A stretch of 64,000 nucleotides of DNA from Erysipelotrichaceae bacterium (GTDB lineage: Bacteria; Bacillota_I; Bacilli_A; Erysipelotrichales; Erysipelotrichaceae), in contig JAWRHV010000023.1 in NCBI GenBank assembly GCA_040266995.1, positions 47,922 to 111,921 on the forward strand. Reading direction: 5' to 3'. This document shows, piece after piece, positions 4,353 through 57,335 of the stretch (positions are counted from its first letter, which is position 1; every line of letters starts with the position of its first letter). Under the pieces are notes generated by a model. The model was not told the DNA's origin and ran no database searches. It saw only the letters and a list, made by a program, of their open reading frames with translations. The position numbers and the translations under genes are program-made.

Positions 4353-4710
4353 CGCTGTTATTCCTTTCTGTATACGTATAGATAAACAAAGATGCTTTAT
4401 GACAAAGAAATCCGACCAGCATGGAAAGCACCGGTATACGCAGATAGGCGCCCAATCCGAAAATTAACGCATAAACGACATACCGGGCCGCATAGCCGGC
4501 TGCTCCTTTTGTCTTTCCATCTTCTTGACCGGACAGAGTATCGACCATCGATAGGATCATCTGATAGCCTATCAACCCTGTGCCGGCCCCGATCCAGACA
4601 CCCAGGCAGGCTTGCCAGCCGAAGATCCACAACGCCAGCAATGAACCTCCTGCACTTAAGCCTACCGTTGTACGGCGTATGAACCGGTTCATCTTTTTTA
4701 ATTGATTCAT
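4345..4710 (-). CDS. atpI: AtpI-like small membrane protein (ATP synthase protein I)
   Basis: 121 aa hydrophobic protein overlapping the atpB start by 8 nt. It is in the upp-atpI-atpB position seen in Bacilli. Confidence 0.55.
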
Positions 4711-5331: not shown

Positions 5332-5348
5332 ACAATTTCCTCCTCGTG

Positions 5349-6116
5349 TCATTCATTGTATAGATCCATACCCAGAGATGTGATGGTATGCTGCCCAGCA
5401 GCTTCCCAGTCGATCCCTGTATACGGTAGATCCCTCTTTAAAAATGTATTTTGTAAAACATCCAAGGCCAGTTCCGGATTGTTGGCCTCTTCGGATAAAT
5501 GTGCCAATACAATTCTTTTTGTATTGGTGTTGATCAATCCTGTCAAACAGGAAGAAGCATCTTCGTTATTTAAATGCCCGCTGTCTCCCAGTATCCTCTG
5601 CTTGACAAACATCGGCCGCCGGGTCTTCATCAAGGTGGCCACATCATGATTGCTTTCAAATATATAGTAATCGGCATTCTCCAGATACTTTTTCTCATGG
5701 TTCGGAATATATCCGGTATCGGTAATATAAACCAGTTTTTCTTCCGGTGTTTCCAGAACATAGCCGACCGTTTTCGGTGCATCATGGCTCAGCCCGATGA
5801 CCCGGATATGAAGATCTTTGACATCAAACTGGGACAAAGGACGCACGATCCGATGCTGGCTGCAATCCTCCAGATCACAGTATGAATAGATCGGAAGATC
5901 CCGAAAATGTTTTAGTTGGGCGATATGATCTTTGTGGGTGTGCGTTATCAAAACGGCATCCATATCCTTCTTTTTCACACCGGCCTGCATAAATGCCTGT
6001 GTCAGATATTTTTTGGTCGAACCACAGTCGATCATCAACTGCGTATCCTTGTGCCGGATAATACAACAGTTTCCTTTGGAGCCGCTGCATAATAGATCAA
6101 CCCGCATAGATATCAT
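5349..6116 (-). CDS. MBL-fold metallo-hydrolase (YycJ-like)
   Basis: 255 aa with the HxHxDH motif (ITHTHKDHI). Confidence 0.75.
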
Positions 6117-45237: not shown

Positions 45238-45261
45238 AAAAACCGGCTTTAGCCGGTTTTA
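45236..45261. terminator. bidirectional terminator
   Basis: AAAAACCGGCT-tt-AGCCGGTTTT perfect hairpin. It overlaps both convergent stop codons. Confidence 0.8.
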
Positions 45262-45816
45262 TTCGTAGGATGGGCGTGGCTGTGACTGGTTTTCCTGCCA
45301 GTACTCCATAGCCAATTCATACATAACTTCATCAATATCCTCTTCTTCATATTCCAGTGCATCTTCATAAAAATCATCATAATGCGCTTGAGCATAATCC
45401 TCGGCTGTCGGATACTGGTCCACTTCCTTATCCCGTGCCTGTTCAAATCGTTCCCACTTTTCATACGCAGCCTGCGCATTGATACACCAGATCTTTTCTC
45501 CGTTCTTTTCCTCCATATGAGGCAGCCCGTCATCATCCCAATACAGTTTGTTGATCCGCTGCACTTTCGTGACTTTGCCGTTTCGTACGCGAACCATCAA
45601 TACACGTTCGCCCTGGATCTTCCATATATATACATTATTCTTATAAGAGGTATGCTTGCCACAAAGCGTTTCATCGATATCTTGTTCCGGCATTCCTTCA
45701 TAGGGAACCTCTTGTGAAGTTCTTGTTTCTGTTGTAGTGACCTGGGCAGTTGTTTGTTCATAACCGACACAACCAATCAACAACCAAAGAACGCATGCCC
45801 ATTGAAACCATTTCAT
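45259..45816 (-). CDS. lipoprotein with an acidic C-terminal region
   Basis: Lipobox LLIGC after MKWFQWACVLW. I started it at the internal Met of the 238-aa ORF. Confidence 0.55.
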   Translation of the reverse strand: MKWFQWACVLWLLIGCVGYEQTTAQVTTTETRTSQEVPYEGMPEQDIDETLCGKHTSYKNNVYIWKIQGERVLMVRVRNGKVTKVQRINKLYWDDDGLPHMEEKNGEKIWCINAQAAYEKWERFEQARDKEVDQYPTAEDYAQAHYDDFYEDALEYEEEDIDEVMYELAMEYWQENQSQPRPSYE

Positions 45817-45949
45817 ATCTTTAGTATACACGAAAAGATGAAAAACAGATAAAAACATCTTGATAAACAAAAATATTTTATCGTTTTTCGATATATTTTT
45901 ATTGACTTTCAAAATATTGAATGTTACCATCACGGTGGAGGTACTACTT

Positions 45950-46411
45950 ATGAATTCAAAAATTGTTACTTTCACAAAAACATGTCTGGATATTATTTTT
46001 GTTCTCAGTATACTTGGAACCCTGGCATGCCCTTACCTGATCAAACTCTATGCGATGCATCAAAGGACCAACCAATATGCTCGTATAGGTCATAATTATG
46101 TTCTTTTATGTATATTATTTACCATTGCGGGCTTTTTGGGGATCTTGATTCTCTTTGAGCTTAGAAAGATGATGAAATCCGTACAGAAAGAAGACTGTTT
46201 TGTCTATGAAAACGTAACGAGTTTAAAAAAAATGGGAACCTATGCGTTTCTGATTTCCATCGATATGAGCTTACGTGTCTTTACCTACATAACCCCTTCT
46301 ATTTTATTGATCGTCTTTACGTTTCTGATTGCCGGGCTTTTCAGCAAAGTGCTGGCTCTGGTCTTTGAACAGGCAGTCCAGTATAAGCTGGAAAACGATA
46401 TGACAATCTAG
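45950..46411 (+). CDS. DUF2975-family membrane protein
   Basis: 153 aa with four transmembrane helices. It is directly upstream of a YozG-like small HTH gene, which is the usual pairing. Confidence 0.6.
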   Translation: MNSKIVTFTKTCLDIIFVLSILGTLACPYLIKLYAMHQRTNQYARIGHNYVLLCILFTIAGFLGILILFELRKMMKSVQKEDCFVYENVTSLKKMGTYAFLISIDMSLRVFTYITPSILLIVFTFLIAGLFSKVLALVFEQAVQYKLENDMTI

Positions 46412-46425
46412 TGGAGGTGACATTT

Positions 46426-46641
46426 ATGGCTATTATCGTAAATTTGGATGTCATGATGGCAAAAAGAAAGATCGGTTTGTCCGAACTGGCGGAGCGTGTA
46501 AACATCACCAACGCCAATTTATCCATTTTGAAAAACAATCGGGCCAAAGCCGTACGTTTCAGCACTCTGGATGCCATCTGTAAGGAACTAAACTGCCAGG
46601 TCGGTGACATTCTTGAATATGTACCGGATGAAAAGGAGTGA
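46426..46641 (+). CDS. small XRE/Cro-like HTH regulator (YozG-like)
   Basis: MAIIVNLDVMMAKRKIGLSELAERVNITNANLSILKNNRAKAVRFSTLDAICKELNCQVGDILEY. It is preceded by GGAGGTG. Confidence 0.8.
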   Translation: MAIIVNLDVMMAKRKIGLSELAERVNITNANLSILKNNRAKAVRFSTLDAICKELNCQVGDILEYVPDEKE

Positions 46642-46645
46642 TCGA

Positions 46646-48115
46646 ATGAACCAAAAAAAGGAAGCGGTAGTCCCGCAGCCCCCTGTCTTTACTATAAAAA
46701 ATGAAAGAATGGAAAACTTCCATCGTTTCGGAACGGCCAGTCTGCTCTTTGCGGGCTTATATATCCTGTGCTTGTATCAGAACCCTCACGGTATCCTTTA
46801 CCCGATTTTTATGGGTGGCACATTGTATTTGATGAAACGCGTGGCCCGAAAGGATACATATACAAAAATGGATTGGTTTTATACACTCTCCCTAATGGTC
46901 CTTTCTGTCTGTAAGTGTATGATCCTTTCGGTGCCTATGCAGTTTGCGGATACGCTGGCTATCGGATGTCTTTGGATCGGTTACATTCTGCATATGTATA
47001 CAGATATGGTTCAGTGGTCTATCGGACAGAAGAGCCTGGCCTTGATCAAAATGGCCGGACAGTTGATCGTTCGGTGCATGCAGCCATTATTTTCTCTATT
47101 TGGTGTATTTCATACACTTAATTTTAATAAAAAAGAGATTATTGTTCCGGTTGTTATCGGTTTGATGACTGCCTTCCCTTTGGTGGGAATCATCTTGGTG
47201 CTGTTGACATCGGCTGATGCCGTATTTGATTCCATGGTTCATTCCATGATCCGTCTGATATTCATACCGGAGGATATCGGGAATATCCTGCAAATTCTGT
47301 GGACCTTTATCGCTATGTATATCCTGTTTTTTGACATACACATGGTTGTTCAAAACATACCGGATAAAAAGCAGGAAAAACGGACCCTCTACAGCTCCAT
47401 TACCGCCATTACCACATCCAGTGTCCTGGCGGTGGTCTACATTGCGTTCAGCTGTATTCAGATCGTGTATTTATTTATCGGAAATATGAAGTTACCGGAT
47501 GGTTATACCTATGCGCAGTATGTGCATGAAGGCTTCTATGAGCTATTGGCAGTCAGTCTTATCAATCTTGTGCTGGTGCTTATATGTAAAGAGATCTTTA
47601 AGCCCTCCAGGATCCTCAATGGACTGCTGACGATCATCTGCCTGTGTACAGGCATTATGATTGCTTCCAGCGCTCTTCGGATGAGTATGTATATCCAGTC
47701 CTATCATCTGACCTTCCTGCGCTTGTTTGTGTTATGGTTTCTGTTTGTTCTCAGCATTTGGATCGTACTGACAACCATTCACATCTATCGATCAGATCTG
47801 CCGTTATTACGATATGGGATGATTGCCATAACTCTGTGCTGGATCGGATTTCATCTGATCCGTCCGGAATACCAAATTGCCCGCTATGATCTCTCTCACA
47901 GACAGGATGTACCGGTTTATGAAGATTCCATGGATACATATCTTCTTTACCTGTCCGAAGATGCCGTAGATGCCTTCGACATGAACAGTGACATCGGAAA
48001 GGAGTATGCTCGTATCCACGCAAACCAACAACCTTCCACGCTTCTGCAGAAGATCCGAACCTTTAACTTTTCCCAAGCGCACGCCAACCGCATCTTTCAC
48101 AAATTGAACCCCTGA
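46646..48115 (+). CDS. polytopic membrane protein of unknown function (DUF4153-like)
   Basis: About 490 aa with at least 10 predicted transmembrane helices. Confidence 0.5.
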   Translation: MNQKKEAVVPQPPVFTIKNERMENFHRFGTASLLFAGLYILCLYQNPHGILYPIFMGGTLYLMKRVARKDTYTKMDWFYTLSLMVLSVCKCMILSVPMQFADTLAIGCLWIGYILHMYTDMVQWSIGQKSLALIKMAGQLIVRCMQPLFSLFGVFHTLNFNKKEIIVPVVIGLMTAFPLVGIILVLLTSADAVFDSMVHSMIRLIFIPEDIGNILQILWTFIAMYILFFDIHMVVQNIPDKKQEKRTLYSSITAITTSSVLAVVYIAFSCIQIVYLFIGNMKLPDGYTYAQYVHEGFYELLAVSLINLVLVLICKEIFKPSRILNGLLTIICLCTGIMIASSALRMSMYIQSYHLTFLRLFVLWFLFVLSIWIVLTTIHIYRSDLPLLRYGMIAITLCWIGFHLIRPEYQIARYDLSHRQDVPVYEDSMDTYLLYLSEDAVDAFDMNSDIGKEYARIHANQQPSTLLQKIRTFNFSQAHANRIFHKLNP

Positions 48116-48140
48116 GATCATAGTCTCAGGGGTTCTTTCT
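48106..48140 (+). terminator. intrinsic terminator after the membrane-protein gene
   Basis: CCCCTGAGA-tcatag-TCTCAGGGG followed by TTCTTTCT. Confidence 0.7.
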
Positions 48141-49216
48141 CAGAACAGAATATCTTTGAAGCAGATACTTTGTTTTTCCTCTGCATAATCCCAGGTATGC
48201 GCTGCACCACCTCGACAAAACTCTTTGTCTGAACAATGGCTGCATGTTTTGTTACGTTGGGCCAAAGGGGTCCGGTAGATATCAAACCGGTCATTCCAGA
48301 CATCGGTAAATCGATCTTTATAAATATTTCCCTGGATGGTTTTCTTATTCCGGTCAATATCCAGACACGCCAGGATATCTCCATTAGCGGCAATACTGGC
48401 CACATAGAGGCCGGCACTGCAGATAAAATAATGATTCCGAACTTCCCGTTCCACATCCAATCCCAGGTAATGGGAACAACCATAGGTCACCGGCAGGTTT
48501 TGTATTCTCTTATCCATGATAAAGCGAAAGAGCATTTTCTGATCTTCCGGTGTCAGTAGTAAGTCTTTTCGCATCAGTGCGCGACCAATCGGTTCTATAC
48601 CGATCACCCGCCAGGAATCTATGTCCATCGTATTGAAGATTGTAAACAGCGCCTCCAGTTCATGAATATTTTCATGGGTTACCACTGTGGTCACCTGTAC
48701 GATATAGTCATGCGGAATCAACGCCTGTATGGCCTGCATGGATTTTTTATAGGCCCCTTTGATACCTCGGAAAGTATCATGCGTGGCCTCCAGTCCGTCT
48801 ATACTGATGGATACAGACCGCATGCCACATTGTTCCAGCATGCCTGCTACATCGTCATCGATCAAGGTTCCATTGGATGTCATCCCCCAGCGAAACCCTA
48901 GATCTTTGGCATACTGCATAATTTCAAAAAAATCTTCTCGTAATAAAGGCTCGCCGCCGGTAATACATAAAAGCAGCTCTTGCAGATCAAAGTTTTCCTT
49001 GACTTCCTCCAGCACGGAAAAGATAACCTCTTTTGGTAAATCCTTTGAAACGATATCGCCGCAACGACTGCCGCAATGTGCGCAATATTCATTACAGCGT
49101 TGTGTCAATTCAATAAAAAACTCTTTTAACCTTGGTGTTTGACATAATTCTTTATGATAATTTGCCAGCTGCTGCAAATGTTGTTTTTTTAACGCGATGA
49201 TTTCTTCGTATGTCAT
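48140..49216 (-). CDS. radical SAM enzyme with a C-terminal SPASM/twitch Cys cluster
   Basis: CNEYCAHC (CX3CX2C) at about aa 40, GGEPLL, and a C-terminal cluster CSHYLG...CSAG...ILAC...CSHCSDKEFCRGG. Confidence 0.75.
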   Translation of the reverse strand: MTYEEIIALKKQHLQQLANYHKELCQTPRLKEFFIELTQRCNEYCAHCGSRCGDIVSKDLPKEVIFSVLEEVKENFDLQELLLCITGGEPLLREDFFEIMQYAKDLGFRWGMTSNGTLIDDDVAGMLEQCGMRSVSISIDGLEATHDTFRGIKGAYKKSMQAIQALIPHDYIVQVTTVVTHENIHELEALFTIFNTMDIDSWRVIGIEPIGRALMRKDLLLTPEDQKMLFRFIMDKRIQNLPVTYGCSHYLGLDVEREVRNHYFICSAGLYVASIAANGDILACLDIDRNKKTIQGNIYKDRFTDVWNDRFDIYRTPLAQRNKTCSHCSDKEFCRGGAAHTWDYAEEKQSICFKDILF

Positions 49217-49428
49217 GATTCGTCCTCAGGAGGTCCGTAAACGGCAGGTTCCCTATTTTCCTCCGGCTCCAGATCAACAGGTGGCCCATAGACTTCCTCC
49301 ACTTTTTCTTGTTGCGGATCATATGGTTCCGGATACTTCACCTCTTTCTGTGGCTGAAAACAACCTCCCAGTAAAAAGGCAGAAGTGACAGCTGTTCCGA
49401 CAATAATTCTTTTTTTAGGTTTTTTCAT
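49213..49428 (-). CDS. small Pro/Glu/Tyr-rich lipoprotein translationally coupled to the radical-SAM gene
   Basis: MKKPKKRIIVGTAVTSAFLLGGC (lipobox), then ...EVYGPPVDLEPEENREPAVYGPPEDES. Its stop overlaps the radical-SAM ATG (ATGA). Confidence 0.5.
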   Translation of the reverse strand: MKKPKKRIIVGTAVTSAFLLGGCFQPQKEVKYPEPYDPQQEKVEEVYGPPVDLEPEENREPAVYGPPEDES

Positions 49429-49499
49429 ACTGCTTCTCCTGCTTTCAGTATAAGTGAATTTCATTCCACGTTTCAAGAAAAATGGTGTAGTATAACTAT

Positions 49500-49853
49500 A
49501 TGCATGAGATGAGCTATGTAATCCGTTTTGTGAATATAGCAATCGAAACAGCGCAGTCACAAAACGCAAAACACGTTGAATCCCTGGTTGTAGAGGTTGG
49601 TGAAATGACCTCTGTATTACCGGAATATCTTCATAAGTACTATCCCCAGGCCATTAAAAATACGATCCTGGAAGGATCGCAGTTAAAAACTATTGCCGTA
49701 AAAGCGAAGGTCGAATGTTTATCATGTCATACACAATACCACCCGGAACGTTCCCATCAATACCTTTGCCCTGTGTGCCAGAGTGCCATGGGGCGGATCC
49801 TGGAAGGACGGGATGTTCGTTTAAAAGAGGTGCAGGTGACCATCGACGATTAA
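49500..49853 (+). CDS. hypA: hydrogenase nickel-insertion metallochaperone HypA
   Basis: 117 aa starting MHEMSYV..., with the CxxC...CxxC zinc site (CLSCH...CPVC). Confidence 0.85.
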   Translation: MHEMSYVIRFVNIAIETAQSQNAKHVESLVVEVGEMTSVLPEYLHKYYPQAIKNTILEGSQLKTIAVKAKVECLSCHTQYHPERSHQYLCPVCQSAMGRILEGRDVRLKEVQVTIDD

Positions 49854-50830
49854 CAGATCCGCGGCAAGCCTTCCGTCTGCAATACCGAAAGACGTCGGAT
49901 CCCGCCAATATCCGTATGGAGCAGTAATTGCCCCGGCTGGTCGGTTTCGACAGATCCAATGATGGATGCGTTTTGTCCATAGGGACTATGGCGAAGGATG
50001 TCCAATGCTTTTTGAGCATCTTTTTTTGCGACAATGCAGACGCATTTCCCTTCGTTGCCCATATATAATGGATCTAAACCCAATAAACCACAGAAATCTT
50101 GCACAACCCGGGAAACCGGGATTTCTTTTTCATAAATATGAAAAGCTTTTTGAGCGCTTTCTGCCAGTTCTTTTAAAACAGTAGCCAACCCTCCTCTGGT
50201 TACATCACGCATACTGTGTATTTCCACATTGGATTCCAGTAAACGTTCAACCATTGTATTCAAGGGAGCCACATCACTGCCAATCTCGCTGTGAATGGAC
50301 AAACGATGTCCTAAAATGGCTGCATGATGGTCTCCCAGATTGCCGGACACAAGGATGACATCTCCCTCCTGGGCTTTCTTTGCGGAAATATCCACTCTTG
50401 GATCGACAAAGCCAATGCCAGCTGTATTAATATACATACCACCATTTCCTTCGATCACTTTGGTATCACCGGCAACAATGGATACACCAGCTTCTTTGGC
50501 AGTCTGTGCCATGGAGTTTACTACTTTCTTTAACAGATCAATGGACAATCCTTCCTCCAGAATAAACCCGCAGGTCAGATATTTCGGAATCGCTCCCCGC
50601 ATCAACAGATCATTGACAGTACCACAAACCGCAAGACGTCCAATATCGCCATTTTTAAAGACAAGGGGGTTAACCACAAAGCTGTCCGTGGAGACCGCCA
50701 GCTTTTGATAGCCGGCGACCACAGCACAATCTTCCATTTCATTGGAAAATGAACGGGCAAAGATTGTCCGGATCAAATCTTCCGTAGCTTGTCCACCACT
50801 GCCATGGATCATCAAAATACTATCGTTCAT
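49850..50830 (-). CDS. hypE: hydrogenase maturation protein HypE
   Basis: AIR-synthase-related fold starting MIHGSGG. I chose the start at MNDSIL (RBS AGGTGA). An alternative start MTGDRM at 50845 would overlap hypD. Confidence 0.8.
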   Translation of the reverse strand: MNDSILMIHGSGGQATEDLIRTIFARSFSNEMEDCAVVAGYQKLAVSTDSFVVNPLVFKNGDIGRLAVCGTVNDLLMRGAIPKYLTCGFILEEGLSIDLLKKVVNSMAQTAKEAGVSIVAGDTKVIEGNGGMYINTAGIGFVDPRVDISAKKAQEGDVILVSGNLGDHHAAILGHRLSIHSEIGSDVAPLNTMVERLLESNVEIHSMRDVTRGGLATVLKELAESAQKAFHIYEKEIPVSRVVQDFCGLLGLDPLYMGNEGKCVCIVAKKDAQKALDILRHSPYGQNASIIGSVETDQPGQLLLHTDIGGIRRLSVLQTEGLPRIC

Positions 50831-50834
50831 TCTA

Positions 50835-51884
50835 TCACCTGTCATTTCTCTGATTGATAAAATAGGAATGACAATTGCCTTCCTCACTGACCATACAAGC
50901 TCCCTGTGGTTGTAAAGGCGTACATGTCTTTCCGTACAATGGACACTGGTAAGGTCGCATTTTTCCTGTCAAAACCTGATCGCAGCAACACTTCTGATTC
51001 ATCTTATGATCCTCGTTCAAATTAGCACTTCCGGCATCAAAAGCACTATATTGATTACGCAGCTGACGACCGGAACCACAGATTATCCCCATTCCACGCC
51101 AAACCGCATCCACCGGTTCAAAGTAACGGTCAATCAATTCCTGTGCCTTTTCGTTGCCGGCTTCTGTAACCACTTCCGGATAAAAATTCATCACCTTCGG
51201 CTGATGATAGGCATGCAGGATTCCATACAGGGCCACTAAGATTTGGCTAGCTTGAAATCCGGCAACTCCAAAAGGAATCTTATACGTTTGTGCCAGGGGA
51301 TCAAATACTTTATATCCTGTTACGACCGCTACATGCCCGGGAGCAAGAAATCCATCGATCTTTGCCTGCTGGGCACATAATGTATCCAGGACCGGCGGCA
51401 TGGTCTTCAAAGCTTTCAGCAGTTTTACATTGGAAACAGATTCCTGCTCCAGGGTCTGCATCAATAACGCATACACCGGCATGGTCGTTTCAAAGCCGAC
51501 AGCCGCAAACACAAACGTCGTTTGTGGTTCCTTTGCAGCAAGCTTTAAAATATCAAAAGGGGAGTATACCATCTCTACATGCGCGCCTTGTCCTTTGGCC
51601 TGGGCCAAACTGACTGTGCTTCCGGGGATCCGGAGCATGTCTCCGAAGGTAACCACACACGTATCCTTTCTCATAGATAACTCGATCAGACGGTCTACAT
51701 AAGAAGACGGCGTCACACAAACCGGACAACCGGGTCCGGAAATCAAATGAATTTTATGCGACAATAAAGAGGGAATGCCGCTTTTGGCAATGGCTCCTGT
51801 ATGTGAGCCACATACCTCCATGATGGAAACCTCCGGCCCGTCATACGCTTGCAGATACCGGATGATATCGGTTCGATCCATCAT
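50835..51884 (-). CDS. hypD: hydrogenase maturation protein HypD
   Basis: CGSHT, GPGCPVC and the C-terminal Fe-S Cys motifs. Confidence 0.9.
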   Translation of the reverse strand: MMDRTDIIRYLQAYDGPEVSIMEVCGSHTGAIAKSGIPSLLSHKIHLISGPGCPVCVTPSSYVDRLIELSMRKDTCVVTFGDMLRIPGSTVSLAQAKGQGAHVEMVYSPFDILKLAAKEPQTTFVFAAVGFETTMPVYALLMQTLEQESVSNVKLLKALKTMPPVLDTLCAQQAKIDGFLAPGHVAVVTGYKVFDPLAQTYKIPFGVAGFQASQILVALYGILHAYHQPKVMNFYPEVVTEAGNEKAQELIDRYFEPVDAVWRGMGIICGSGRQLRNQYSAFDAGSANLNEDHKMNQKCCCDQVLTGKMRPYQCPLYGKTCTPLQPQGACMVSEEGNCHSYFINQRNDR

Positions 51885-52096
51885 TTGAAAGCCTCCAGTT
51901 GTGAAAACAGCTCCGTCATCTGTTCAGCTTCTATTTCGTTCATTTTTTGTAAGATACAGCCAGCATGTACCAATACATAGTCTCCTGTTTTTACATCCAC
52001 CAGACCGGTTCTTGCTTCAACTTGATTTCCATTAAAATCCACAAGGGCCTTTTGACTGAACACCTTTTGTACCTTTCCAGGCAGGGCAACACACAT
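51881..52096 (-). CDS. hypC: hydrogenase maturation protein HypC
   Basis: Starts MCVALPGKV, the HypC N-terminal Cys signature. I used the internal start of the 77-aa ORF. Confidence 0.8.
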   Translation of the reverse strand: MCVALPGKVQKVFSQKALVDFNGNQVEARTGLVDVKTGDYVLVHAGCILQKMNEIEAEQMTELFSQLEAFK

Positions 52097-52144
52097 GATG
52101 ATCACTCCTTTCACTTCATTTAGAAAGGTGGAGCTTTCTCCACC

Positions 52145-52627
52145 TTATTGAATTTCTTGTTTTTCTTCGGCTGCTTTTTTTGCTGCTTCCGCTTTCTTTT
52201 TCGCCAAAGCCTCTTCTCTTGCTTTTTTCGCGGCCGCAGCCTTCTTGGCAATTTCAGCTCGTTTGGCTGCTTCTGCTGCCATCACTTCCGGTGATTTTTG
52301 ATAGACTGCTTCCTGTTTCACAGGACCCGGCGTCTGATAGCCGGGAACAATATGCAGACATTTCTTTGGACAACGCTGTACACAATAACCACAGGCAATG
52401 CAGTCAAAGCGGTTGATGGTCCATGTCCCTTCCACCTTATTGACTTTCAGACAACGTGGCGGACAGCCACGTGTACATAGCCCGCAGGAAATACATTCAT
52501 CAATGTCGATTTCTATATGCCCGCGGCTTCTTTCCGGATAGACGGCAGGCTTCTCCGGATAACTTGTCGTAACCGGTTTGGAAACCAGATTTTTTAATAC
52601 CTGACCGGTAAATGTTAGAATTCCCAT
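52145..52627 (-). CDS. echF: Ech hydrogenase 2x[4Fe-4S] ferredoxin subunit (NuoI-like) with a Lys/Ala-rich C-terminal tail
   Basis: Two CxxCxxCxxxCP motifs (CISCGLCTRGCP and CIACGYCVQRCP). About 45 aa of AKKA-type repeats follow. I started it at MGILTF (RBS AGGTGA). Confidence 0.7.
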   Translation of the reverse strand: MGILTFTGQVLKNLVSKPVTTSYPEKPAVYPERSRGHIEIDIDECISCGLCTRGCPPRCLKVNKVEGTWTINRFDCIACGYCVQRCPKKCLHIVPGYQTPGPVKQEAVYQKSPEVMAAEAAKRAEIAKKAAAAKKAREEALAKKKAEAAKKAAEEKQEIQ

Positions 52628-52635
52628 GCTCTCAC

Positions 52636-53715
52636 CTATCTTTCTGTACAGCTGATACATGGATCAATTGTTAAGATCAAAATCGGAACATCGGCATAAT
52701 TGCAACCTTTCAGCATTTCCACTAAGGCCGGCAGATTCGCAAAGGTCGGTGTCCTGATTCGTAAACGATCCAGGTATAGTTTTCCCGTCCCTTTTACGTA
52801 ATATATCGCTTCCCCTCGTGGCTGTTCGATACGAACAAAGTGCTCCCCTTTTACGTTGCCTTTGACCGAAACGCTCAATTCGCCTTCCGGAATCTTACCA
52901 ATGGCTTGACGAATGATATCGATGGATTGATAAATCTCATGGATACGCACTTCACAACGGGCATAACTGTCCCCGTCCGAAGATACGATCGGTTCAAAAT
53001 CCAGATCTCCATAGGCTTCATAACCTAGAGAACGCATATCGATATTGATACCGCTGGCCCGCGCAAACGGACCGACAGCACCTAACATATGCACTTGTTT
53101 ACGGCTTAATACGCCAACGCCTTTCAACCGGCTCTGCACAGAATAATCAAACAGGAAGGTATGTTCGATAACACGTACATCGGCTTCCACCTGGTCCAGC
53201 TCTGTCAGGATGTGTTTCAACATATCCGGTGTGATATCCTTTAATACACCGCCTACTTTATTGACAGAAAAGATGACCCGGCCACCAGTCGTCAATTCAA
53301 TCAGATCCAGGATCCTTTCGCGTATTCTCCAGCTTTGATAGAACAAGCTTTCAAAGCCGAAGCCGTCAGCCAGTAATCCCAGCCACAGTAAATGGCTATG
53401 CAGCCGGGAAAGCTCCATCCAGATGGTGCGTAAATACTTTGCGCGATCCGGGATCTCCACATCCATGACTTCCTCCACAGCTTCACAATACCCCATTCCA
53501 TGGCCAAAACTGCAGATTCCGCATGTTCTTTCCGCCACATATACCATCTCAAAATAGTCTTTTTTCTCCGTCAGGCTTTCCAGTCCCCGGTGAATAAAAC
53601 CAATAGAAGGAATAACATTGGTAACAATTTCGTCTTCCAAGACAAGATCCAGATGGATTGGTTCCGGTAAAACCGGGTGTTGCGGACCAAATGGTACAAT
53701 ACTCTTTTTACCCAT
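52636..53715 (-). CDS. echE: group 4 (energy-converting) [NiFe] hydrogenase large subunit
   Basis: N-terminal RTCGICS (RxCGxC) and a C-terminal end exactly at DPCISCTER (DPCxxCxxR). There is no C-terminal extension. The sequence is NuoD-like. Confidence 0.85.
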   Translation of the reverse strand: MGKKSIVPFGPQHPVLPEPIHLDLVLEDEIVTNVIPSIGFIHRGLESLTEKKDYFEMVYVAERTCGICSFGHGMGYCEAVEEVMDVEIPDRAKYLRTIWMELSRLHSHLLWLGLLADGFGFESLFYQSWRIRERILDLIELTTGGRVIFSVNKVGGVLKDITPDMLKHILTELDQVEADVRVIEHTFLFDYSVQSRLKGVGVLSRKQVHMLGAVGPFARASGINIDMRSLGYEAYGDLDFEPIVSSDGDSYARCEVRIHEIYQSIDIIRQAIGKIPEGELSVSVKGNVKGEHFVRIEQPRGEAIYYVKGTGKLYLDRLRIRTPTFANLPALVEMLKGCNYADVPILILTIDPCISCTER

Positions 53716-53716
53716 A

Positions 53717-54082
53717 TTATTTCTTCTCCTTCGGAAGGAACGGTGTCTCTTTTTCAATGCGATACAGCTTATTATTGTAGTCCAGTGAAATATATTTCAC
53801 ATTGACACCATAAAGCTCCTTCATCTCATTCTCATAAAATACTGCCATCGGATAGATTTCCGTTATGCTCGGTACTTCCGTGTCCAGATCGCAGATGACA
53901 CGCAGTGTCGTAAAGCGATGTAGACCATCCTGAATAAATGAATAGCTCAACTCATATTTACCATCGACATAGGCTGCACAGATCTGACTGATCCGTTCCC
54001 CTCTGTTTTTTCGTTCCAGCACATTCAGAAGCAGCTCACCTAAGTCAATTTCTTCAATCTTATATTCCCGGTTTGGTCTCAT
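53717..54082 (-). CDS. echD: Ech hydrogenase subunit D (NuoC-like)
   Basis: 121 aa, located between the small and large subunits. Confidence 0.65.
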   Translation of the reverse strand: MRPNREYKIEEIDLGELLLNVLERKNRGERISQICAAYVDGKYELSYSFIQDGLHRFTTLRVICDLDTEVPSITEIYPMAVFYENEMKELYGVNVKYISLDYNNKLYRIEKETPFLPKEKK

Positions 54083-54083
54083 T

Positions 54084-54533
54084 TTACCGTTCCTCCGTTG
54101 TCAGCTGATACGTATAGTCATCACATCGTTTTTCAAACAAGTTGATGGCCTGTACCAGTCCATCGATGATCGATTGTGGTCTGGCCGCACAGCCAGGCAC
54201 ATAAATATCTACCGGTATGGTCGTATCCACACCGCCTTTGATATTGTAGCATTCTTTAAAAATACCCCCTGTACAAGCACATGTTCCGACGGCGACGACC
54301 ACCTTCGGGTTGGACATCTGCTCATACAGCTGTTTCACAACGGGTTGATTCTGCGAGTTGATCCCCCCGGTAATCAAAAAGATATCGGCTTGTAAAGGGT
54401 CTCCGGTATTTACAATGCCAAAGCGCTCCGCATCATAAACGGGTGTCAGGCAGGCCAGAACTTCTATATCGCACCCATTACAGCTGGATCCGTCATAATG
54501 AAGGACCCAGGGCGAACGTTTTACTTTTGCCAT
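54084..54533 (-). CDS. echC: [NiFe] hydrogenase small subunit (NuoB-like)
   Basis: 149 aa with a Cys set for the proximal cluster (CNGC...GTCACTGG...PGCAARP). Confidence 0.85.
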   Translation of the reverse strand: MAKVKRSPWVLHYDGSSCNGCDIEVLACLTPVYDAERFGIVNTGDPLQADIFLITGGINSQNQPVVKQLYEQMSNPKVVVAVGTCACTGGIFKECYNIKGGVDTTIPVDIYVPGCAARPQSIIDGLVQAINLFEKRCDDYTYQLTTEER

Positions 54534-54546
54534 CTTTACACCTCCA

Positions 54547-55419
54547 TCAATGAACCAGCATCAGGACCAAAAGATTCAGTCCGGCTGCAAATAACGTGAC
54601 AAGCCAGGTAATGCGAAGCATATTTTTCATTTTCATACGGGCACTGACATTATCGATCAATACCTCTGTAAAAAATACCAACGCCACAAGCACAGCGGCC
54701 AGCGGAATGCTCCACAGATTCTTGTTCAATACAAACAAAGCGACAAATCCTAACAAAAATACATTTTCATACCACTCTGCAACATGGAAAATAGCCAGAT
54801 TTCTGGCACCCATCTCCGTAGTGATCCCTTGGACCAGCTCCTGGTGTGCATGATGCCCTCCGCTGATATCGAATGGAGATTTTCGCATCTTGATGGTCAA
54901 TATGAACACAAAAGCGATAAAGAAACCGGGCAGCTGCCACAACAAGACAGAATCCGTCTGGCTGATCGCCCCTACATTAAATGTACCGGTTACCAGATAG
55001 AAGCCGACACAAGCCAGCAAAACAGCCGGTTCATAGGTCATGATCTGTACCAGTTCACGATTGGCTGCGATCGAGTTATATGGTGAACTGGTGACAACGG
55101 CGGCAAAATATAAAAAGGTAGAAGCCGTTGACAGAACAAAAACGCTCATCAGAATATCACTGCCACTAAAAAAGATAGCCCCGGACATGATCATCAGAAT
55201 CATATAGGATAACAATAAACCGGACATCGAGGTATCCACTACATCGATCCTTTGTTTATTCAATAATTTTTTAATATCGTAGAACGGCTGCAGAACGGAA
55301 GGTCCGATACGCCCTTGCATGCGGGCTGAAAGCTTACGGTCAATGCCGCTGAGAAGGCCCCCGATCAAAGGTCCGAATACGATAAAACCAACAACACCGA
55401 GCACATTAATAATCGTCAT
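54547..55419 (-). CDS. echB: Ech hydrogenase membrane subunit (NuoH/HycD-like)
   Basis: About 290 aa polytopic protein. The start at MTIINVLG overlaps the echA stop (ATGA). Confidence 0.75.
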   Translation of the reverse strand: MTIINVLGVVGFIVFGPLIGGLLSGIDRKLSARMQGRIGPSVLQPFYDIKKLLNKQRIDVVDTSMSGLLLSYMILMIMSGAIFFSGSDILMSVFVLSTASTFLYFAAVVTSSPYNSIAANRELVQIMTYEPAVLLACVGFYLVTGTFNVGAISQTDSVLLWQLPGFFIAFVFILTIKMRKSPFDISGGHHAHQELVQGITTEMGARNLAIFHVAEWYENVFLLGFVALFVLNKNLWSIPLAAVLVALVFFTEVLIDNVSARMKMKNMLRITWLVTLFAAGLNLLVLMLVH

Positions 55420-57335
55420 ACGATCATCCCTCCCAGAATCATACAGAACAGGATGAGGATCCAGCCACTGGCAATCAGCTGAGAAAGCTTCATCGTTCGT
55501 TCCGGTTGAATAAAGTCCGTAAAATACAGATTGGACAACCACAATTTATTGTTGTGGCCCAGTGAATTGACAAACTGATTGTTGTTGCCCACATTCACAC
55601 CACTCATATAAGACAGCTTTACATTGGACTGTTGATGTCGGATATAGGTGAAAGAAACAACCGGCACCATAAAGACAAACAGGAAGATCACAACCATGAT
55701 GATCAGAATCGGTAAGGACAAAACATCCGTATACGTTCCGAACATCTCTATCAGTAACGGGTCTACGAATACCTGTGAAATGATTGGAAGCAATACGCAT
55801 AACATGATCATCATACCGGCATGTACACGCAAAGAAAGCTTTTGGCTATCCTGTGTAATCGCATCGGTCTTCGCGCTTCCTCGATGATTGCGGCTGATTA
55901 GTTTTCCCACCCATTTTGTCCAATAAAGCCCTGTTGTCGCGCTGCCAAAAGCAATGAACAGAACCAAAAGAATATTACTGTCATCCACCGCTGCTTTTAA
56001 CGCCGACCATTTGGAAATCAACATACCAAAAGGAGCCAGGAACATTCCGGCAATCCCGATAAACATAAATGTAGCTAACGAGGGTAAACGGTAGAGCAGA
56101 CCATGCATATTTTCGATATCCCTGCTTCCGATCCGGTTTTCCACAGCCCCTACTGTCTGGAACAGCAAAGATTTGGAAATCGAATGAAACATCATCAGGA
56201 ACACAGCAGCCCAGATGGTTTCCGGCATTCCCACACCACAGCAGGCAACCATCAAACCCAGATTGGAAATGGTCGAAAAAGCCAAAACCCTTTTTCCGTC
56301 ATTTTGTGAAATAGCCAGAATACTCGCTACAAAGAAGGTAAAGCCCCCAACAAAGGACACCATATTGCCTGTTAAGGTACCACGCATGGCCGGAGCCAGA
56401 CGCAGCAGAATATAGATTCCTGCTTTGACCATCGTTGCACTATGTAACAATGCGCTCGATGGTGTCGGTGCCACCATAGCCCCCATCAGCCAGGTGGAAA
56501 AAGGCATCTGTGCCGCTTTTGTCAGAGCAGCAAATGCGATACATGCGATCGGAATGATGGCCGCCGCATTCTGCATATTCCCAAACAAAACAAGGTCATG
56601 GATCGAAACCGTTCCGACGGAACAACCAAAATAGACAATCCCGAATGCCAGGACCATTCCGCCCAACAGGTTCATCCACAAGGCCCGAAATGAATTATTG
56701 ACAGCCTCTTCTGTCTTTGTATAACCGATCAGAAGGAATGAACAAACACTGGTGATTTCCCAGAACAGATCGATCCACAAAAGACTGGATGACAGCACAA
56801 AACCGAACATAGCACCGATAAATATAAATAATAAGGCAAAGAAGTATTGCCGCCGATCGGTATATTCTTTATGGTGGTTATGATATCCATACATATATCC
56901 AACCGCATATATTATAATCAGCCCTCCGATAAAGCCGATGATCAAACACATCAGGATGGACAGATGATCCACATAAATATGGTTCATCGTCTCCATTTCC
57001 GGTCCCTTGAGTTCAAACCACGTGATCAGCAGGGTAGGAACGATTGAGAGCAGACTGACCCAGTACTTTCGATACTTAAAGCTAAGGTAGGTAATCAGGC
57101 ACATCAGTCCGATTTCAGCCGCTAAAATAAAATGATCTATCCTATCTGTTTCCGGATAATAAGACATCACTTTGGTTCCGTTTGCCAGCCATTGACCAAC
57201 CAGCAGGAATACGGCAGCCATAATCACAGCAACCCCTGCATACATGATATGATCCCTTATTTTCGGTTCTTTTATGCAATAGATAAAAGGAGCACATAAA
57301 AAAGGGAATACAATTAAAAATACGGTTATCGGCAT
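55416..57335 (-). CDS. echA: Ech hydrogenase antiporter-like membrane subunit (NuoL/HyfB-like)
   Basis: 639 aa with about 16 transmembrane helices. It is first in the six-gene cluster and has the RBS AGGGCGGAGGG. Confidence 0.75.
   Translation of the reverse strand: MPITVFLIVFPFLCAPFIYCIKEPKIRDHIMYAGVAVIMAAVFLLVGQWLANGTKVMSYYPETDRIDHFILAAEIGLMCLITYLSFKYRKYWVSLLSIVPTLLITWFELKGPEMETMNHIYVDHLSILMCLIIGFIGGLIIIYAVGYMYGYHNHHKEYTDRRQYFFALLFIFIGAMFGFVLSSSLLWIDLFWEITSVCSFLLIGYTKTEEAVNNSFRALWMNLLGGMVLAFGIVYFGCSVGTVSIHDLVLFGNMQNAAAIIPIACIAFAALTKAAQMPFSTWLMGAMVAPTPSSALLHSATMVKAGIYILLRLAPAMRGTLTGNMVSFVGGFTFFVASILAISQNDGKRVLAFSTISNLGLMVACCGVGMPETIWAAVFLMMFHSISKSLLFQTVGAVENRIGSRDIENMHGLLYRLPSLATFMFIGIAGMFLAPFGMLISKWSALKAAVDDSNILLVLFIAFGSATTGLYWTKWVGKLISRNHRGSAKTDAITQDSQKLSLRVHAGMMIMLCVLLPIISQVFVDPLLIEMFGTYTDVLSLPILIIMVVIFLFVFMVPVVSFTYIRHQQSNVKLSYMSGVNVGNNNQFVNSLGHNNKLWLSNLYFTDFIQPERTMKLSQLIASGWILILFCMILGGMIV

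What the first reader, a model, noticed from the sequence alone, without database searches (positions are those of the whole stretch)
48140..49428. Small Tyr/Pro-rich lipoprotein translationally coupled (ATGA) to a radical-SAM/SPASM enzyme
A 71-aa lipoprotein precursor has a lipobox (LLGGC) and a mature part rich in Pro/Glu/Tyr, with two VYGPP repeats. Its stop overlaps the start of a radical-SAM protein that has CX3CX2C plus a C-terminal SPASM-type Cys cluster. SPASM enzymes typically modify peptide or protein substrates encoded next to them. AnSME-type members modify signal-peptide-bearing substrates before export. The pair could therefore be a substrate-maturase couple, for example a Tyr or Pro crosslink or hydroxylation on a surface lipoprotein. 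The pair shares a divergent promoter region with hypA.
Basis: inference. Interest (0 to 1): 0.55.

Follow-up and report, generated by a model that had tools for sequence, protein, structure and literature searches.

The report
YGPP lipoprotein with its radical-SAM maturase
A tiny surface lipoprotein carrying two Val-Tyr-Gly-Pro-Pro motifs is encoded with a dedicated iron-sulfur radical enzyme, and this pairing recurs in thousands of gut and rumen bacteria, so the enzyme almost certainly modifies that motif chemically before the protein is exported, by a reaction not yet established.

Summary
On the minus strand, a 71-aa lipoprotein precursor (49428..49213, lipobox LLGGC, two VYGPP) overlaps by ATGA a 358-aa radical-SAM/SPASM gene (49216..48140). 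The pair has its own promoter-like site and hairpin terminator.

The substrate-maturase reading is strongly supported:
- 72 of 79 related genome loci have a same-strand upstream secreted protein with 1-7 [V/L]YGPP motifs, and 3 more have one about 5.7 kb upstream.
- YGPP occurs nowhere else in about 298,000 aa of six-frame flanking ORFs.
- No other neighbour is conserved.

The enzyme's best family is TIGR04133 ("rSAM/lipoprotein system", uncharacterised), but at 268 bits it is below the 425-bit cut-off, so it is a sister clade.

Partners of more distant clades share only a [V/L/I/M/K]-Y-G-P-x-P core. They include true TIGR04133-type lipoproteins, dockerin proteins, cytosolic zinc-ribbon proteins and natural enzyme-partner fusions.

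The chemistry is untested. [quoted passage not shown] Rivals are a Tyr crosslink, epimerisation or hydroxylation.

It is a new variant of a computationally known but experimentally unexplored kind. The link to hypA is local, not conserved.

The parts
49213..49428 (-). Gene for the 71-aa lipoprotein precursor, the proposed substrate
   Evidence: ORF and translation. No Pfam or NCBIfam family matches it. The ortholog in L099 is 88% identical and keeps both motifs.
49360..49428 (-). Signal peptide with lipobox (MKKPKKR-IIVGTAVTSAFL-LGGC, Cys23)
   Evidence: Read directly from the sequence. The same N-terminal architecture occurs in most of the 72 partner proteins: 38 pass a strict lipobox regex, and others carry looser lipoboxes or signal peptides.
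49279..49293 (-). VYGPP motif 1 (residues 46-50), a proposed modification site
   Evidence: GTC TAT GGG CCA CCT on the minus strand. Motif consensus from 226 sites in 72 loci: N(-6, 54%) ... [V 78% / L 16%]-Y-G-P-P-[E/P/S]-x-F.
49228..49242 (-). VYGPP motif 2 (residues 63-67), preceded by Asn at -6 as in the family consensus
   Evidence: GTT TAC GGA CCT CCT on the minus strand; consensus.
49213..49216 (-). ATGA stop/start overlap (translational coupling)
   Evidence: Sequence ...GAA TCA TGA CAT ACG.... A GAGGA lies 5 nt upstream of the enzyme's ATG. In related loci the partner's stop lies a median of 25 nt before the start of the tblastn match.
48140..49216 (-). Gene for the 358-aa cytoplasmic radical-SAM/SPASM enzyme, the proposed maturase
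   Evidence: Pfam Radical_SAM + SPASM. TIGR04133 is the best NCBIfam hit at 268 bits over the full length, with a cut-off of 425. More than 3000 homologs. AlphaFold2 pLDDT 96.7. Foldseek top matches are SkfB, SuiB, CteB, anSMEcpe and ChlB.
49073..49096 (-). CX3CX2C radical-SAM cluster motif (C41, C45, C48), followed by the near-invariant C52
   Evidence: Invariant in 97 sequences down to 30% identity.
48161..48478 (-). SPASM-type auxiliary-cluster region (Cys 247, 266, 284, 325, 328, 334, 352)
   Evidence: Pfam SPASM over residues 266-328. C266, C284, C325, C328, C334 and C352 are invariant across the superfamily. C247 is invariant only within the close clade.
49447..49476 (-). Promoter-like site TTGAAA-18-TATACT upstream of the lipoprotein gene
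   Evidence: Consensus scan, 10 of 12 matches. This is a pattern match only.
48106..48135 (-). 12-bp GC-rich hairpin just after the enzyme's stop codon; probable terminator shared with the convergent DUF4153 gene
   Evidence: RNA fold -24.5 kcal/mol, z = -4.66 against shuffles.

Best explanation
The two genes form a self-contained substrate-maturase cassette.

Proposed sequence of events (all inferred):
1. The cytoplasmic radical-SAM/SPASM enzyme has no signal peptide and no RRE-type leader-binding domain. It recognises the short motif [V/L]-Y-G-P-P in the still unfolded, co-expressed lipoprotein precursor.
2. It uses a 5'-deoxyadenosyl radical to modify each motif.
3. The protein is then exported by Sec, lipidated at Cys23 and displayed on the cell surface as a short, acidic, Pro-rich, disordered chain.

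The logic, local-motif recognition of a secreted protein before export, is that of anaerobic sulfatase-maturating enzymes.

The reaction itself is not shown. My leading candidate (about 0.4) is splicease-type excision of tyramine at the X-Y-G site. That would turn Val-Tyr-Gly into an alpha-keto-beta-valine-Gly ketoamide, an electrophilic protease-inhibitor warhead. Surface display by lipid anchor, or by dockerin in Ruminococcus, would then be a shield against proteases in the gut or rumen.

The confidence given (0.72) is for the substrate-maturase claim, not for the specific chemistry.
For: Shown by tool results:

(a) Co-occurrence.
- 72 of 79 loci from 80 species genomes have a same-strand upstream ORF with 1-7 strict YGPP motifs, 226 motifs in all.
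- 3 more loci have one about 5.7 kb upstream in the same cluster.
- All 15 YGPP hits elsewhere in about 298,000 aa of six-frame flanking ORFs are extra YGPP lipoproteins, so the true background is 0.

(b) Only the motif is conserved. Partner length (about 50-290 aa), spacers and anchoring mode vary, with a lipobox in some and a signal peptide plus Pfam Dockerin_1 in Ruminococcus.

(c) No other neighbour family is conserved: no protease, transporter or RRE.

(d) The link extends over the whole enzyme superfamily.
- A near-TIGR04133 enzyme, P0170 (391 bits), is coupled to a 76-aa lipoprotein with 2x KYGPP.
- Clostridium swellfunianum has two tandem KYGPP lipoproteins.
- Alkaliphilus has a MYGPPP lipoprotein that passes TIGR04134.
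- A deltaproteobacterial MAG has a downstream lipoprotein with LYGPMP, MYGPP and EYGPP repeats.
- A third clade has a downstream, overlapping, cytosolic zinc-ribbon protein with one IYGPRP or VYGPPP.
- P0129 and P0138 fuse such a partner to the enzyme, and P0134 carries VYGxxP motifs at its N-terminus.

(e) The predicted fold matches peptide- and protein-modifying SPASM or twitch enzymes. The whole-length matches, both TM-scores about 0.68, are to RRE-less anSMEcpe and ChlB.

(f) The close relative L099 keeps both motifs.

For the chemistry:
- From the literature, spliceases are rSAM/SPASM enzymes that excise tyramine at X-Y-G (PMC11414181, PMC9811515, PMC5995677).
- Binary systems without an accessory protein exist, and PlpX acts leader-independently on a short tag such as PIRP-L-Y-G-L-P-I (PMC11414181, PMC10533398).
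- YG-rich neighbours of rSAM-SPASM genes were the successful mining criterion for new spliceases (PMC10849128).
- The universal core of the motif here is exactly X-Y-G followed by Pro.
Against: - No biochemical evidence exists for any member.
- The enzyme does not belong to the PlpX family model: TIGR04103 scores 113 bits against a cut-off of 725, no better than AhbD, NirJ or MftC.
- The AlphaFold2 model of the natural fusion P0129 leaves the IYGPP segment (residue 402) at low confidence, about 53 pLDDT. The fold prediction therefore gives no sign that the motif docks in the active site.
- Three Lachnospiraceae loci (L020, L032, L033) have a cation-diffusion-facilitator-like gene upstream and no YGPP protein within about 6 kb.
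- Cytosolic zinc-ribbon partners in another clade show that surface display is not universal, so the proposed protease-shield role is weak inference.
Confidence: 0.72

Rival explanations
1. Same substrate-maturase pair, but the enzyme does not splice. Possible reactions:
- an intramotif crosslink, such as a three-residue cyclophane from the Tyr ring to Pro C-beta (Omega1-X2-X3 = Y-G-P) or a Tyr ether;
- epimerisation of a residue;
- hydroxylation or dehydrogenation of Tyr or Pro.
Any of these would stiffen the surface chain or protect it from proteases.
For: - Structural neighbours include crosslinkers (SuiB, CteB, SkfB, PqqE) and an epimerase (EpeE).
- HMM scores to MftC (129 bits), which acts on a Val-Tyr terminus, and to WgkB exceed or equal the score to the PlpX family.
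- Repeated short aromatic motifs are typical of triceptide precursors (literature).
- Position +2 after Tyr varies (P, C, V, T) across clades, as X3 does in cyclophane motifs.
Against: - The invariant pair across all clades is Y-G, which is the splicease signature. In the sources read here, X-Y-G was described only as the splicease target; whether any cyclophane or crosslinking family uses a Tyr-Gly core was not checked.
- No HMM for a crosslinking family comes near its cut-off.
Confidence: 0.28
2. The small protein is a RiPP precursor rather than a mature surface protein. The signal peptide acts as leader and export signal, the repeated N-x4-VYGPP units are multiple cores, and extracellular proteases release small modified peptides that act as signals, inhibitors or antimicrobials.
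For: - The units repeat, mostly 17-45 residues apart, and are separated by acidic spacers; the copy number varies from 1 to 7.
- The enzyme's fold is that of RiPP maturases.
- Relatives fused to a JAMM/MPN-like peptidase domain suggest that some clades do cleave their substrate.
Against: - No protease or exporter is conserved next to the cassette in 80 loci.
- Partners carry stable anchoring devices: a lipobox, a Dockerin_1 domain, or a CarboxypepD_reg-like domain in the TIGR04134 member. This argues for a retained protein.
- There is no RRE domain in the enzyme.
Confidence: 0.12
3. The lipoprotein is not a substrate. The enzyme works on a small molecule or cofactor (AhbD/NirJ-like tetrapyrrole chemistry), or on another protein, and the YGPP protein is an unrelated or accessory neighbour.
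For: - After TIGR04133, the next best NCBIfam hits are the heme b synthase AhbD (153 bits) and NirJ (144 bits).
- In this window the pair sits beside metallocentre-maturation genes: hypA, hypE-like, hypD and hypC.
Against: - Those scores are far below the cut-offs of 500-515.
- The hyp neighbourhood is kept only in the 90%-identical relative and not in the 80 genome loci.
- The only conserved neighbour is the YGPP protein.
- Natural fusions and coupled zinc-ribbon partners that carry the same motif are hard to explain without direct enzyme-motif interaction.
- Enzyme and mature lipoprotein end up on opposite sides of the membrane, so they can only meet before export.
Confidence: 0.06

Closest known systems
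TIGRFAMs/NCBIfam 'rSAM/lipoprotein system': TIGR04133 (radical SAM/SPASM protein) plus TIGR04134 (radical SAM-associated putative lipoprotein). Both are 'hypothetical equivalog' models, with no experimental characterisation found.
   Same: - It is the best-scoring family for the enzyme, aligned over the full length.
- The layout is the same two-gene one, with a lipoprotein next to the enzyme.
- Partners of enzymes at or near TIGR04133 level also carry x-YGPP right after the lipobox.
- JGI names such relatives 'radical SAM enzyme (rSAM/lipoprotein system)'.
   Different: - The enzyme scores 268 bits against a cut-off of 425, and is about 35% identical to the near-member P0170.
- The window's lipoprotein does not match TIGR04134. 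It lacks the beta-sandwich (CarboxypepD_reg-like) domain of the Alkaliphilus member and consists only of acidic spacers with [V/L]YGPP repeats.
- The clade is specific to rumen and gut Clostridia and Erysipelotrichaceae, and it has dockerin-bearing partner variants.
Spliceases and spliceotides (PlpX/PlpY, PcpX, RhaX, RcsX, RasX): rSAM/SPASM enzymes that excise tyramine at X-Y-G to give alpha-keto-beta-amino acids
   Same: - An rSAM/SPASM enzyme is encoded next to a precursor with conserved, often multiple, X-Y-G sites. X is hydrophobic (Met or Leu there, Val or Leu here), and Pro lies shortly after Gly (PlpA tag ...LYGLPI against LYGPP here).
- Binary systems without an accessory protein are known, as is leader-independent action on proteins (PMC11414181, PMC10533398, PMC11626197).
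   Different: - The enzyme does not fall in the PlpX model TIGR04103 (113 bits against 725).
- The precursors here have Sec/lipoprotein signal peptides or dockerins instead of Nif11/NHLP leaders.
- No mass-loss data exist.
- Scott et al., Chem 2022, surveyed YG-rich neighbours of rSAM-SPASM genes. Whether that survey already lists this clade could not be checked, because the paper is not held.
Anaerobic sulfatase-maturating enzymes (anSME, e.g. anSMEcpe, PDB 4K36-4K39)
   Same: - Size is similar (about 360-370 aa), the architecture is RRE-less rSAM + SPASM, and the whole-length structural match has TM about 0.68 both ways.
- They act on a short local motif of a signal-peptide-bearing protein in the cytoplasm before export (established knowledge).
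   Different: - Identity is 19-21%.
- The partner has no Cys/Ser-x-Pro/Ala-x-Arg motif and there is no sulfatase.
- No anSME model appears among the 25 best NCBIfam hits.
Crosslinking and other peptide-modifying SPASM or twitch enzymes (SuiB, CteB, SkfB, PqqE, MftC, three-residue cyclophane synthases, the epimerase EpeE/YydG)
   Same: They share the fold and cluster-binding motifs. They also share the logic of an adjacent peptide substrate with a short target motif.
   Different: - Identity is 23% or less.
- Most of them carry or need an RRE and a leader peptide, which this enzyme lacks: its N-terminus is a single helix, residues 3-26.
- No such family reaches its HMM cut-off.

Membership tests
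Radical SAM / SPASM superfamily | CX3CX2C cluster motif and Pfam Radical_SAM above its gathering score | tested here: met
   C41/C45/C48 are invariant. PF04055 scores 73.7 bits against 29.5.
Radical SAM / SPASM superfamily | C-terminal SPASM domain with about 7 Cys for auxiliary clusters | tested here: met
   PF13186 scores 32.5 bits against 21.5. There are seven conserved Cys. The AlphaFold2 model matches SPASM enzymes.
TIGR04133 (rSAM/lipoprotein system enzyme) | HMM score at or above the curated cut-off (425 bits) | tested here: not met
   268.1 bits; best hit, aligned over residues 11-353 against profile positions 4-345 of 350. The window enzyme is therefore a sister clade, not a member.
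TIGR04133 (rSAM/lipoprotein system enzyme) | Encoded next to a small lipoprotein | tested here: met
   ATGA-coupled 71-aa lipoprotein with a lipobox. The same holds in 72-75 of 79 related loci.
TIGR04134 (radical SAM-associated putative lipoprotein) | HMM score at or above the cut-off (39.8 bits) | tested here: not met
   No hit at E <= 0.1 for the window protein, nor at E <= 1 for nine partners from related loci. The Alkaliphilus partner does pass, at 52.3 bits.
Bacterial lipoprotein precursor | Basic n-region, hydrophobic h-region and a lipobox ending in Cys within about 15-35 residues | tested here: met
   MKKPKKR / IIVGTAVTSAFL / LGGC, read from the sequence. It fits the Gram-positive lipobox pattern as I recall it. 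Lipidation itself is not testable here.
Spliceases (tyramine-excising rSAM enzymes) | Cognate precursor with conserved X-Y-G site(s) encoded next to the enzyme | tested here: met
   Two V-Y-G sites in the window. Position -1 is V, L or I in 221 of 226 sites, and Y-G is invariant across all clades examined.
Spliceases (tyramine-excising rSAM enzymes) | Membership of the PlpX family (TIGR04103 / IPR026482) or of a validated splicease clade | tested here: not met
   TIGR04103 scores 113 bits against a cut-off of 725. Placement among the later-validated splicease types could not be tested, because their sequences and the survey paper are not held.
Spliceases (tyramine-excising rSAM enzymes) | Loss of C8H9NO (135.07 Da) per site with alpha-ketoamide formation | not testable with these tools
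   Needs co-expression and mass spectrometry.
Anaerobic sulfatase-maturating enzymes | Sulfatase substrate with a Cys/Ser-x-Pro/Ala-x-Arg motif | tested here: not met
   The partner sequence has no such motif and no sulfatase domain. The similarity is structural only.
AhbD / NirJ tetrapyrrole-modifying rSAM enzymes | HMM above cut-off and heme/heme d1 pathway neighbours | tested here: not met
   153 and 144 bits against 500 and 515. No tetrapyrrole genes are conserved in 80 loci.
Three-residue cyclophane synthases (triceptides) | Omega1-X2-X3 motif crosslinked from the aromatic ring to C-beta of X3; enzyme in the 3-CyFE clades | not tested
   Y-G-P formally fits the motif shape. No 3-CyFE model appeared among the 25 best NCBIfam hits, and no reference sequences were available.

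The most novel reading that the evidence does not exclude
A very large, unstudied clade of radical-SAM enzymes in gut and rumen Firmicutes, with relatives in other phyla, installs backbone alpha-keto-beta-amino acids, or another radical modification, at [V/L]YGPP repeats of exported proteins. These proteins are then lipid-anchored or docked into cellulosomes, giving surface-displayed, multivalent, covalent protease-inhibitor 'armour'. That would move ribosomal beta-amino-acid chemistry out of secondary-metabolite peptides and into structural cell-surface proteins of abundant anaerobes. It would also give the orphan TIGR04133/TIGR04134 system a function.
Probability: 0.3. Interest if true: 0.8.

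Novelty: new variant of a known kind. Interest (0 to 1): 0.62.

Why it matters
The cassette is abundant. More than 3000 clusters at 90% identity match at E <= 1e-20, mostly from rumen, horse and human gut Clostridia and Erysipelotrichaceae, yet no member has been studied.

It pairs a minimal enzyme with a five-residue target motif that is tolerated in very different protein contexts. That makes it a one-experiment problem: co-express, then weigh.

If the reaction is tyramine splicing, these bacteria place electrophilic ketoamides on their surface or cellulosome. That would matter for protease resistance in the gut and for fibre-degrading consortia. It would also supply a compact leader-independent tag for protein engineering.

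If it is another reaction, it is new radical-SAM chemistry on a Tyr-Gly-Pro core.

Either way it would assign a function to the TIGR04133/TIGR04134 'rSAM/lipoprotein system', for which I found no experimental characterisation.

Tried and rejected
- Heme or cofactor enzyme (AhbD/NirJ-like). Rejected: scores are far below the cut-offs and no pathway neighbours are present.
- Functional link to the hydrogenase maturation genes. Rejected: the neighbourhood is kept only in the 90%-identical relative L099, not in the 80 species loci.
- YGPP as a generic low-complexity linker of Firmicute lipoproteins. Rejected: there are zero occurrences outside the partner proteins in about 298,000 aa of six-frame flanking ORFs and in the window.
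- A known family for the lipoprotein. Pfam and NCBIfam give nothing beyond signal-peptide-level noise.
- A second rSAM paralog at 61003-62079, which is also 358 aa. It is a GT4 glycosyltransferase.
- Docking test by AlphaFold2 on the natural fusion P0129. Inconclusive: the motif region has low pLDDT and the tool returns no coordinates or PAE.
- Whether the P0129 fusion recurs. Its tail is a singleton among the hits. However, P0138 and the separately encoded, overlapping zinc-ribbon partners show that the fusion joins two naturally adjacent genes.
- Literature. Nothing was found for YGPP/VYGPP with radical SAM, for TIGR04133/TIGR04134, or for 'rSAM lipoprotein system'. One search was too broad to be useful.
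- Material that could not be obtained. Scott et al. 2022 (Chem) and the supplementary sequences of validated spliceases are not held, so no phylogenetic placement against them was possible.
- Look-ups that gave nothing. P0368 (Methanocella) is not on record, and L083 has no upstream sequence.
Full report
**1. What is in the window**

On the minus strand, ORF 49428..49213 encodes a 71-aa protein, MKKPKKRIIVGTAVTSAFLLGGC-FQPQKEVKYPEPYDPQQEKVEEVYGPPVDLEPEENREPAVYGPPEDES.
- Its N-terminus has the three parts of a lipoprotein signal peptide: the basic stretch KKPKKR, a hydrophobic stretch, and the lipobox LLGG-C23.
- An AGGAG lies 7 nt before the ATG.
- The 48-residue mature part is acidic and Pro-rich, with 11 Glu, 10 Pro and 4 Tyr.
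- It contains VYGPP twice, at residues 46-50 and 63-67.

The stop codon overlaps (ATGA, 49216-49213) the start of a 358-aa ORF, 49216..48140.
- This ORF has CNEYCAHC (C41/C45/C48), GGEPLL and seven C-terminal cysteines.
- Pfam calls Radical_SAM and SPASM above threshold.

A promoter-like TTGAAA-18-TATACT lies at 49476-49447. A 12-bp GC-rich hairpin (48135-48106; -24.5 kcal/mol, z = -4.7) follows the enzyme's stop. The pair therefore looks like a two-gene transcription unit.

hypA starts 71 bp away on the other strand.

Two YGPP motifs arise in 7.5e-6 of shuffles of the mature sequence. No other ORF of the 64-kb window contains YGPP.

**2. What the enzyme is**

Against NCBIfam the best hit by far is TIGR04133, 'rSAM_w_lipo'. 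This is a 'hypothetical equivalog' model for the radical SAM/SPASM protein of a computationally defined 'rSAM/lipoprotein system'.
- It scores 268 bits, aligned end to end, but below the curated cut-off of 425.
- The next hits are AhbD 153, NirJ 144, MftC 129, WgkB 113 and the PlpX-type model TIGR04103 113. All are far below their cut-offs.

No solved structure is close by sequence; the best is SkfB at 59 bits.

An AlphaFold2 model built on 97 homologs is very confident (pLDDT 96.7).
- Foldseek places it among peptide- and protein-modifying SPASM or twitch enzymes: SkfB, SuiB, CteB, anSMEcpe, ChlB, PqqE and EpeE, at 23% identity or less.
- The matches that cover both proteins fully (TM about 0.68 each way) are to anSMEcpe and ChlB.
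- The N-terminus is a single helix (residues 3-26). There is no signal peptide, and no room for the roughly 80-100-aa RRE domain that SuiB and CteB carry.

**3. Comparative genomics: the partner is defined by the motif**

The enzyme has more than 3000 homolog clusters at E <= 1e-20. Most are 55-60% identical and come from rumen, horse and human gut Clostridia (Ruminococcus, Lachnospiraceae, Oscillospiraceae, Butyrivibrio, Eubacterium) and Erysipelotrichaceae or Solobacterium. I fetched 80 loci from distinct species genomes.

Co-occurrence:
- In 72 of the 79 loci that have upstream sequence, a same-strand ORF ending a median of 25 nt before the enzyme match carries at least one strict YGPP. There are 226 motifs, 1-7 per protein.
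- Three further loci (L030, L056, L079) have a YGPP lipoprotein about 5.7 kb upstream in the same-direction cluster.
- L070 looks frameshifted.
- L020, L032 and L033 have none within reach.
- All 15 YGPP occurrences elsewhere in about 298,000 aa of six-frame flanking ORFs are additional YGPP lipoproteins, so the real background is zero.

The motif consensus is N(-6, 54%)-x4-[V 78% / L 16%]-Y-G-P-P-[E/P/S]-x-F.

Everything else about the partner varies:
- length runs from about 50 to 290 aa;
- spacers differ, though they stay acidic (24% Asp+Glu, 4% Lys+Arg, 12% Pro);
- some loci have tandem duplicates;
- the mode of anchoring differs, with lipoboxes in many, and a signal peptide plus a Pfam Dockerin_1 domain in Ruminococcus, which would place the protein in the cellulosome.

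All-against-all clustering of flanking ORFs finds no other conserved neighbour: no protease, exporter or RRE protein.

The 90%-identical relative L099 has an 88%-identical lipoprotein with both motifs intact.

**4. The link holds across the superfamily, including fusions**

A search of 1.8 billion cluster representatives gave 327 clusters at E <= 1e-30. All those tested have TIGR04133 as their best family. Contexts of distant members:
- P0170 is 35% identical to the window enzyme and scores 391 bits on TIGR04133. It is preceded, with overlap, by a 76-aa lipoprotein ...LMGCGGFSAKYGPPTSTKYGPPAY.... JGI names its relatives 'radical SAM enzyme (rSAM/lipoprotein system)'.
- Clostridium swellfunianum has two tandem 54- and 57-aa lipoproteins, each with 2x KYGPP.
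- Alkaliphilus transvaalensis has ...LAGCGMYGPPPRSYY... followed by a beta-sandwich domain. That protein passes TIGR04134, at 52 bits against a cut-off of 39.8.
- A deltaproteobacterial MAG has a downstream lipoprotein with LYGPMP, MYGPPL, EYGPPA and LYGVPS repeats.
- A third clade, 42% identical to the window enzyme, has a downstream, overlapping gene for a cytosolic zinc-ribbon protein with a single ...QCIYGPRPVE... or ...GTVYGPPPDL....
- P0129 and P0138 are natural fusions of such a partner to the enzyme's C-terminus (...AVIYGPPEML......QTLYGPPPMN...). P0134 carries VVYGCATP, RVYGVATP and EVYGTPSS at its N-terminus.
- Relatives with a C-terminal JAMM/MPN-like extension have an upstream protein ending ...QCLYGCPTAK....

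The one thing shared by all partners is [V/L/I/M/K]-Y-G followed within 1-3 residues by Pro. Adjacency, translational coupling, motif-only conservation and Rosetta-stone fusions together make a direct enzyme-motif interaction the only economical reading.

**5. How it most likely works**

Shown: the gene pair, its coupling, the cofactor-binding motifs, the fold class, and the motif-specific co-occurrence.

Inferred:
- The enzyme acts in the cytoplasm. It needs SAM and a reductant and has no signal peptide.
- It acts on the unfolded precursor before Sec export and lipidation.
- It recognises the local motif rather than a leader, as anSMEs do with sulfatases (established knowledge).

The chemistry is not shown. 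The best lead comes from the literature on spliceases.
- Natively X is Met or Leu. The PlpA recognition tag is ...P-L/G-Y-G-L-P-I (PMC10533398).
- Binary systems lacking the accessory Y protein exist, and PlpX is leader-independent (PMC11414181).
- A survey that used YG-rich neighbours of rSAM-SPASM genes as its criterion found candidates in 189 genera and validated 27 pairs (as summarised in PMC10849128).
- Ketoamides are protease-inhibitor warheads (PMC11414181, PMC9811515).

A lipid- or dockerin-anchored chain with several Val-ketoamide-Gly-Pro-Pro units would plausibly protect the cell surface or cellulosome in a protease-rich habitat. That functional step is speculation.

Against splicing:
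- The enzyme is no closer to the PlpX model than to other SPASM families.
- The AlphaFold2 model of the fusion P0129 leaves the motif at low confidence.

I put the substrate-maturase claim at about 0.7-0.75. Within that, splicing is about 0.4 and other chemistry (crosslink, epimerisation, hydroxylation) about 0.3.

A released-peptide (RiPP) reading is about 0.12. It overlaps with the substrate-maturase claim, because it concerns the fate of the modified product rather than the enzyme-substrate link. 'Not a substrate' is about 0.06.

**6. Comparison with what is known, and novelty**

By curated thresholds the window's proteins are not members of TIGR04133 or TIGR04134. They form a sister clade with a simpler, repeat-only partner. 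The system type, an rSAM enzyme plus an adjacent lipoprotein, was defined in silico by TIGRFAMs.

I found no paper on it in the held library, and none on YGPP or VYGPP. Scott et al. (Chem 2022) may already include this clade among splicease types. The paper is not held, so this remains an open caveat.

I therefore rate it a new variant of a known kind, with a real chance that a specialist survey has already catalogued it.

**7. Verdict**

The hypA adjacency is incidental.

The finding is worth an experiment. The cassette is minimal, abundant and uncharacterised, and a single co-expression with mass spectrometry discriminates all the candidate chemistries.

Noticed in passing
window 49500-57335: The cassette lies next to a hydrogenase block. 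It comprises hypA (+ strand), then on the minus strand an AIRS-type (HypE-like) gene, hypD, hypC, a 2x[4Fe-4S] ferredoxin-like gene, a gene matching Pfam Complex1_49kDa and NiFeSe_Hases (a NuoD-like [NiFe]-hydrogenase large subunit), and genes matching Pfam NADHdh and Proton_antipo_M. This looks like an Ech/Mbh-type group 4 [NiFe]-hydrogenase with its maturation genes.
   Followed up: partly
window 52145-52660 (-): The ferredoxin-like protein ends in a roughly 45-residue Lys/Ala/Glu-rich low-complexity tail (...AAKRAEIAKKAAAAKKAREEALAKKKAEAAKKAAEEKQEIQ), which is unusual for a hydrogenase Fe-S subunit.
   Followed up: no
proteins P0133, P0136, P0142, P0148; locus L084: Relatives of the enzyme at 40-43% identity carry a C-terminal extension of about 200 aa with an HxHPx6-7Sx2D signature (for example GFVHSHPDDLDLFLSEADVSLH). 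This resembles a JAMM/MPN metalloprotease. No Pfam domain was called for it. The upstream protein in L084 ends ...QCLYGCPTAK....
   Followed up: partly
proteins P0231, P0250, P0435, P0490: Other relatives are fused to family-2 glycosyltransferase domains (some with two or three tandem rSAM modules), to a GNAT acetyltransferase, or to a Cys-rich N-terminal domain with a precomputed Pfam PF15616 hit. The superfamily is architecturally diverse.
   Followed up: no
loci L030, L056, L079 (about 1-6000): In a Lachnospiraceae/Eubacterium subgroup, the YGPP lipoprotein and the enzyme are separated by two conserved genes for zinc-ribbon proteins. One has a predicted membrane segment (MICPFCNSEIP...). 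This may be a four-gene variant of the cassette.
   Followed up: partly
loci L006, L014, L022, L027, L031, L051, L052, L057, L058, L060, L071, L075 and others: In Ruminococcus, including R. flavefaciens, the partner is a signal-peptide protein with Thr-rich linkers, YGPP or YGP motifs and a type I dockerin. It would therefore be a cellulosome component rather than a lipoprotein.
   Followed up: partly
window 45860-48115 (+): Immediately downstream, and convergent with the enzyme gene, lies a trio: DUF2975 membrane protein, HTH_26 (Cro/C1-type) regulator, and a DUF4153 membrane protein.
   Followed up: no
window 45259-45975 (-): This 238-aa ORF has no Pfam family. An internal Met gives a lipoprotein-like start (MKWFQWACVLWLLIGC...). 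It may be another small surface protein, but it has no YGPP.
   Followed up: no
loci L020, L032, L033: Three Lachnospiraceae loci have a 382-aa membrane protein directly upstream of the enzyme. By eye it resembles a cation diffusion facilitator. They have no YGPP protein within the roughly 3-6 kb of flanking sequence held. The substrate may be encoded elsewhere, or the enzyme may be orphaned.
   Followed up: partly
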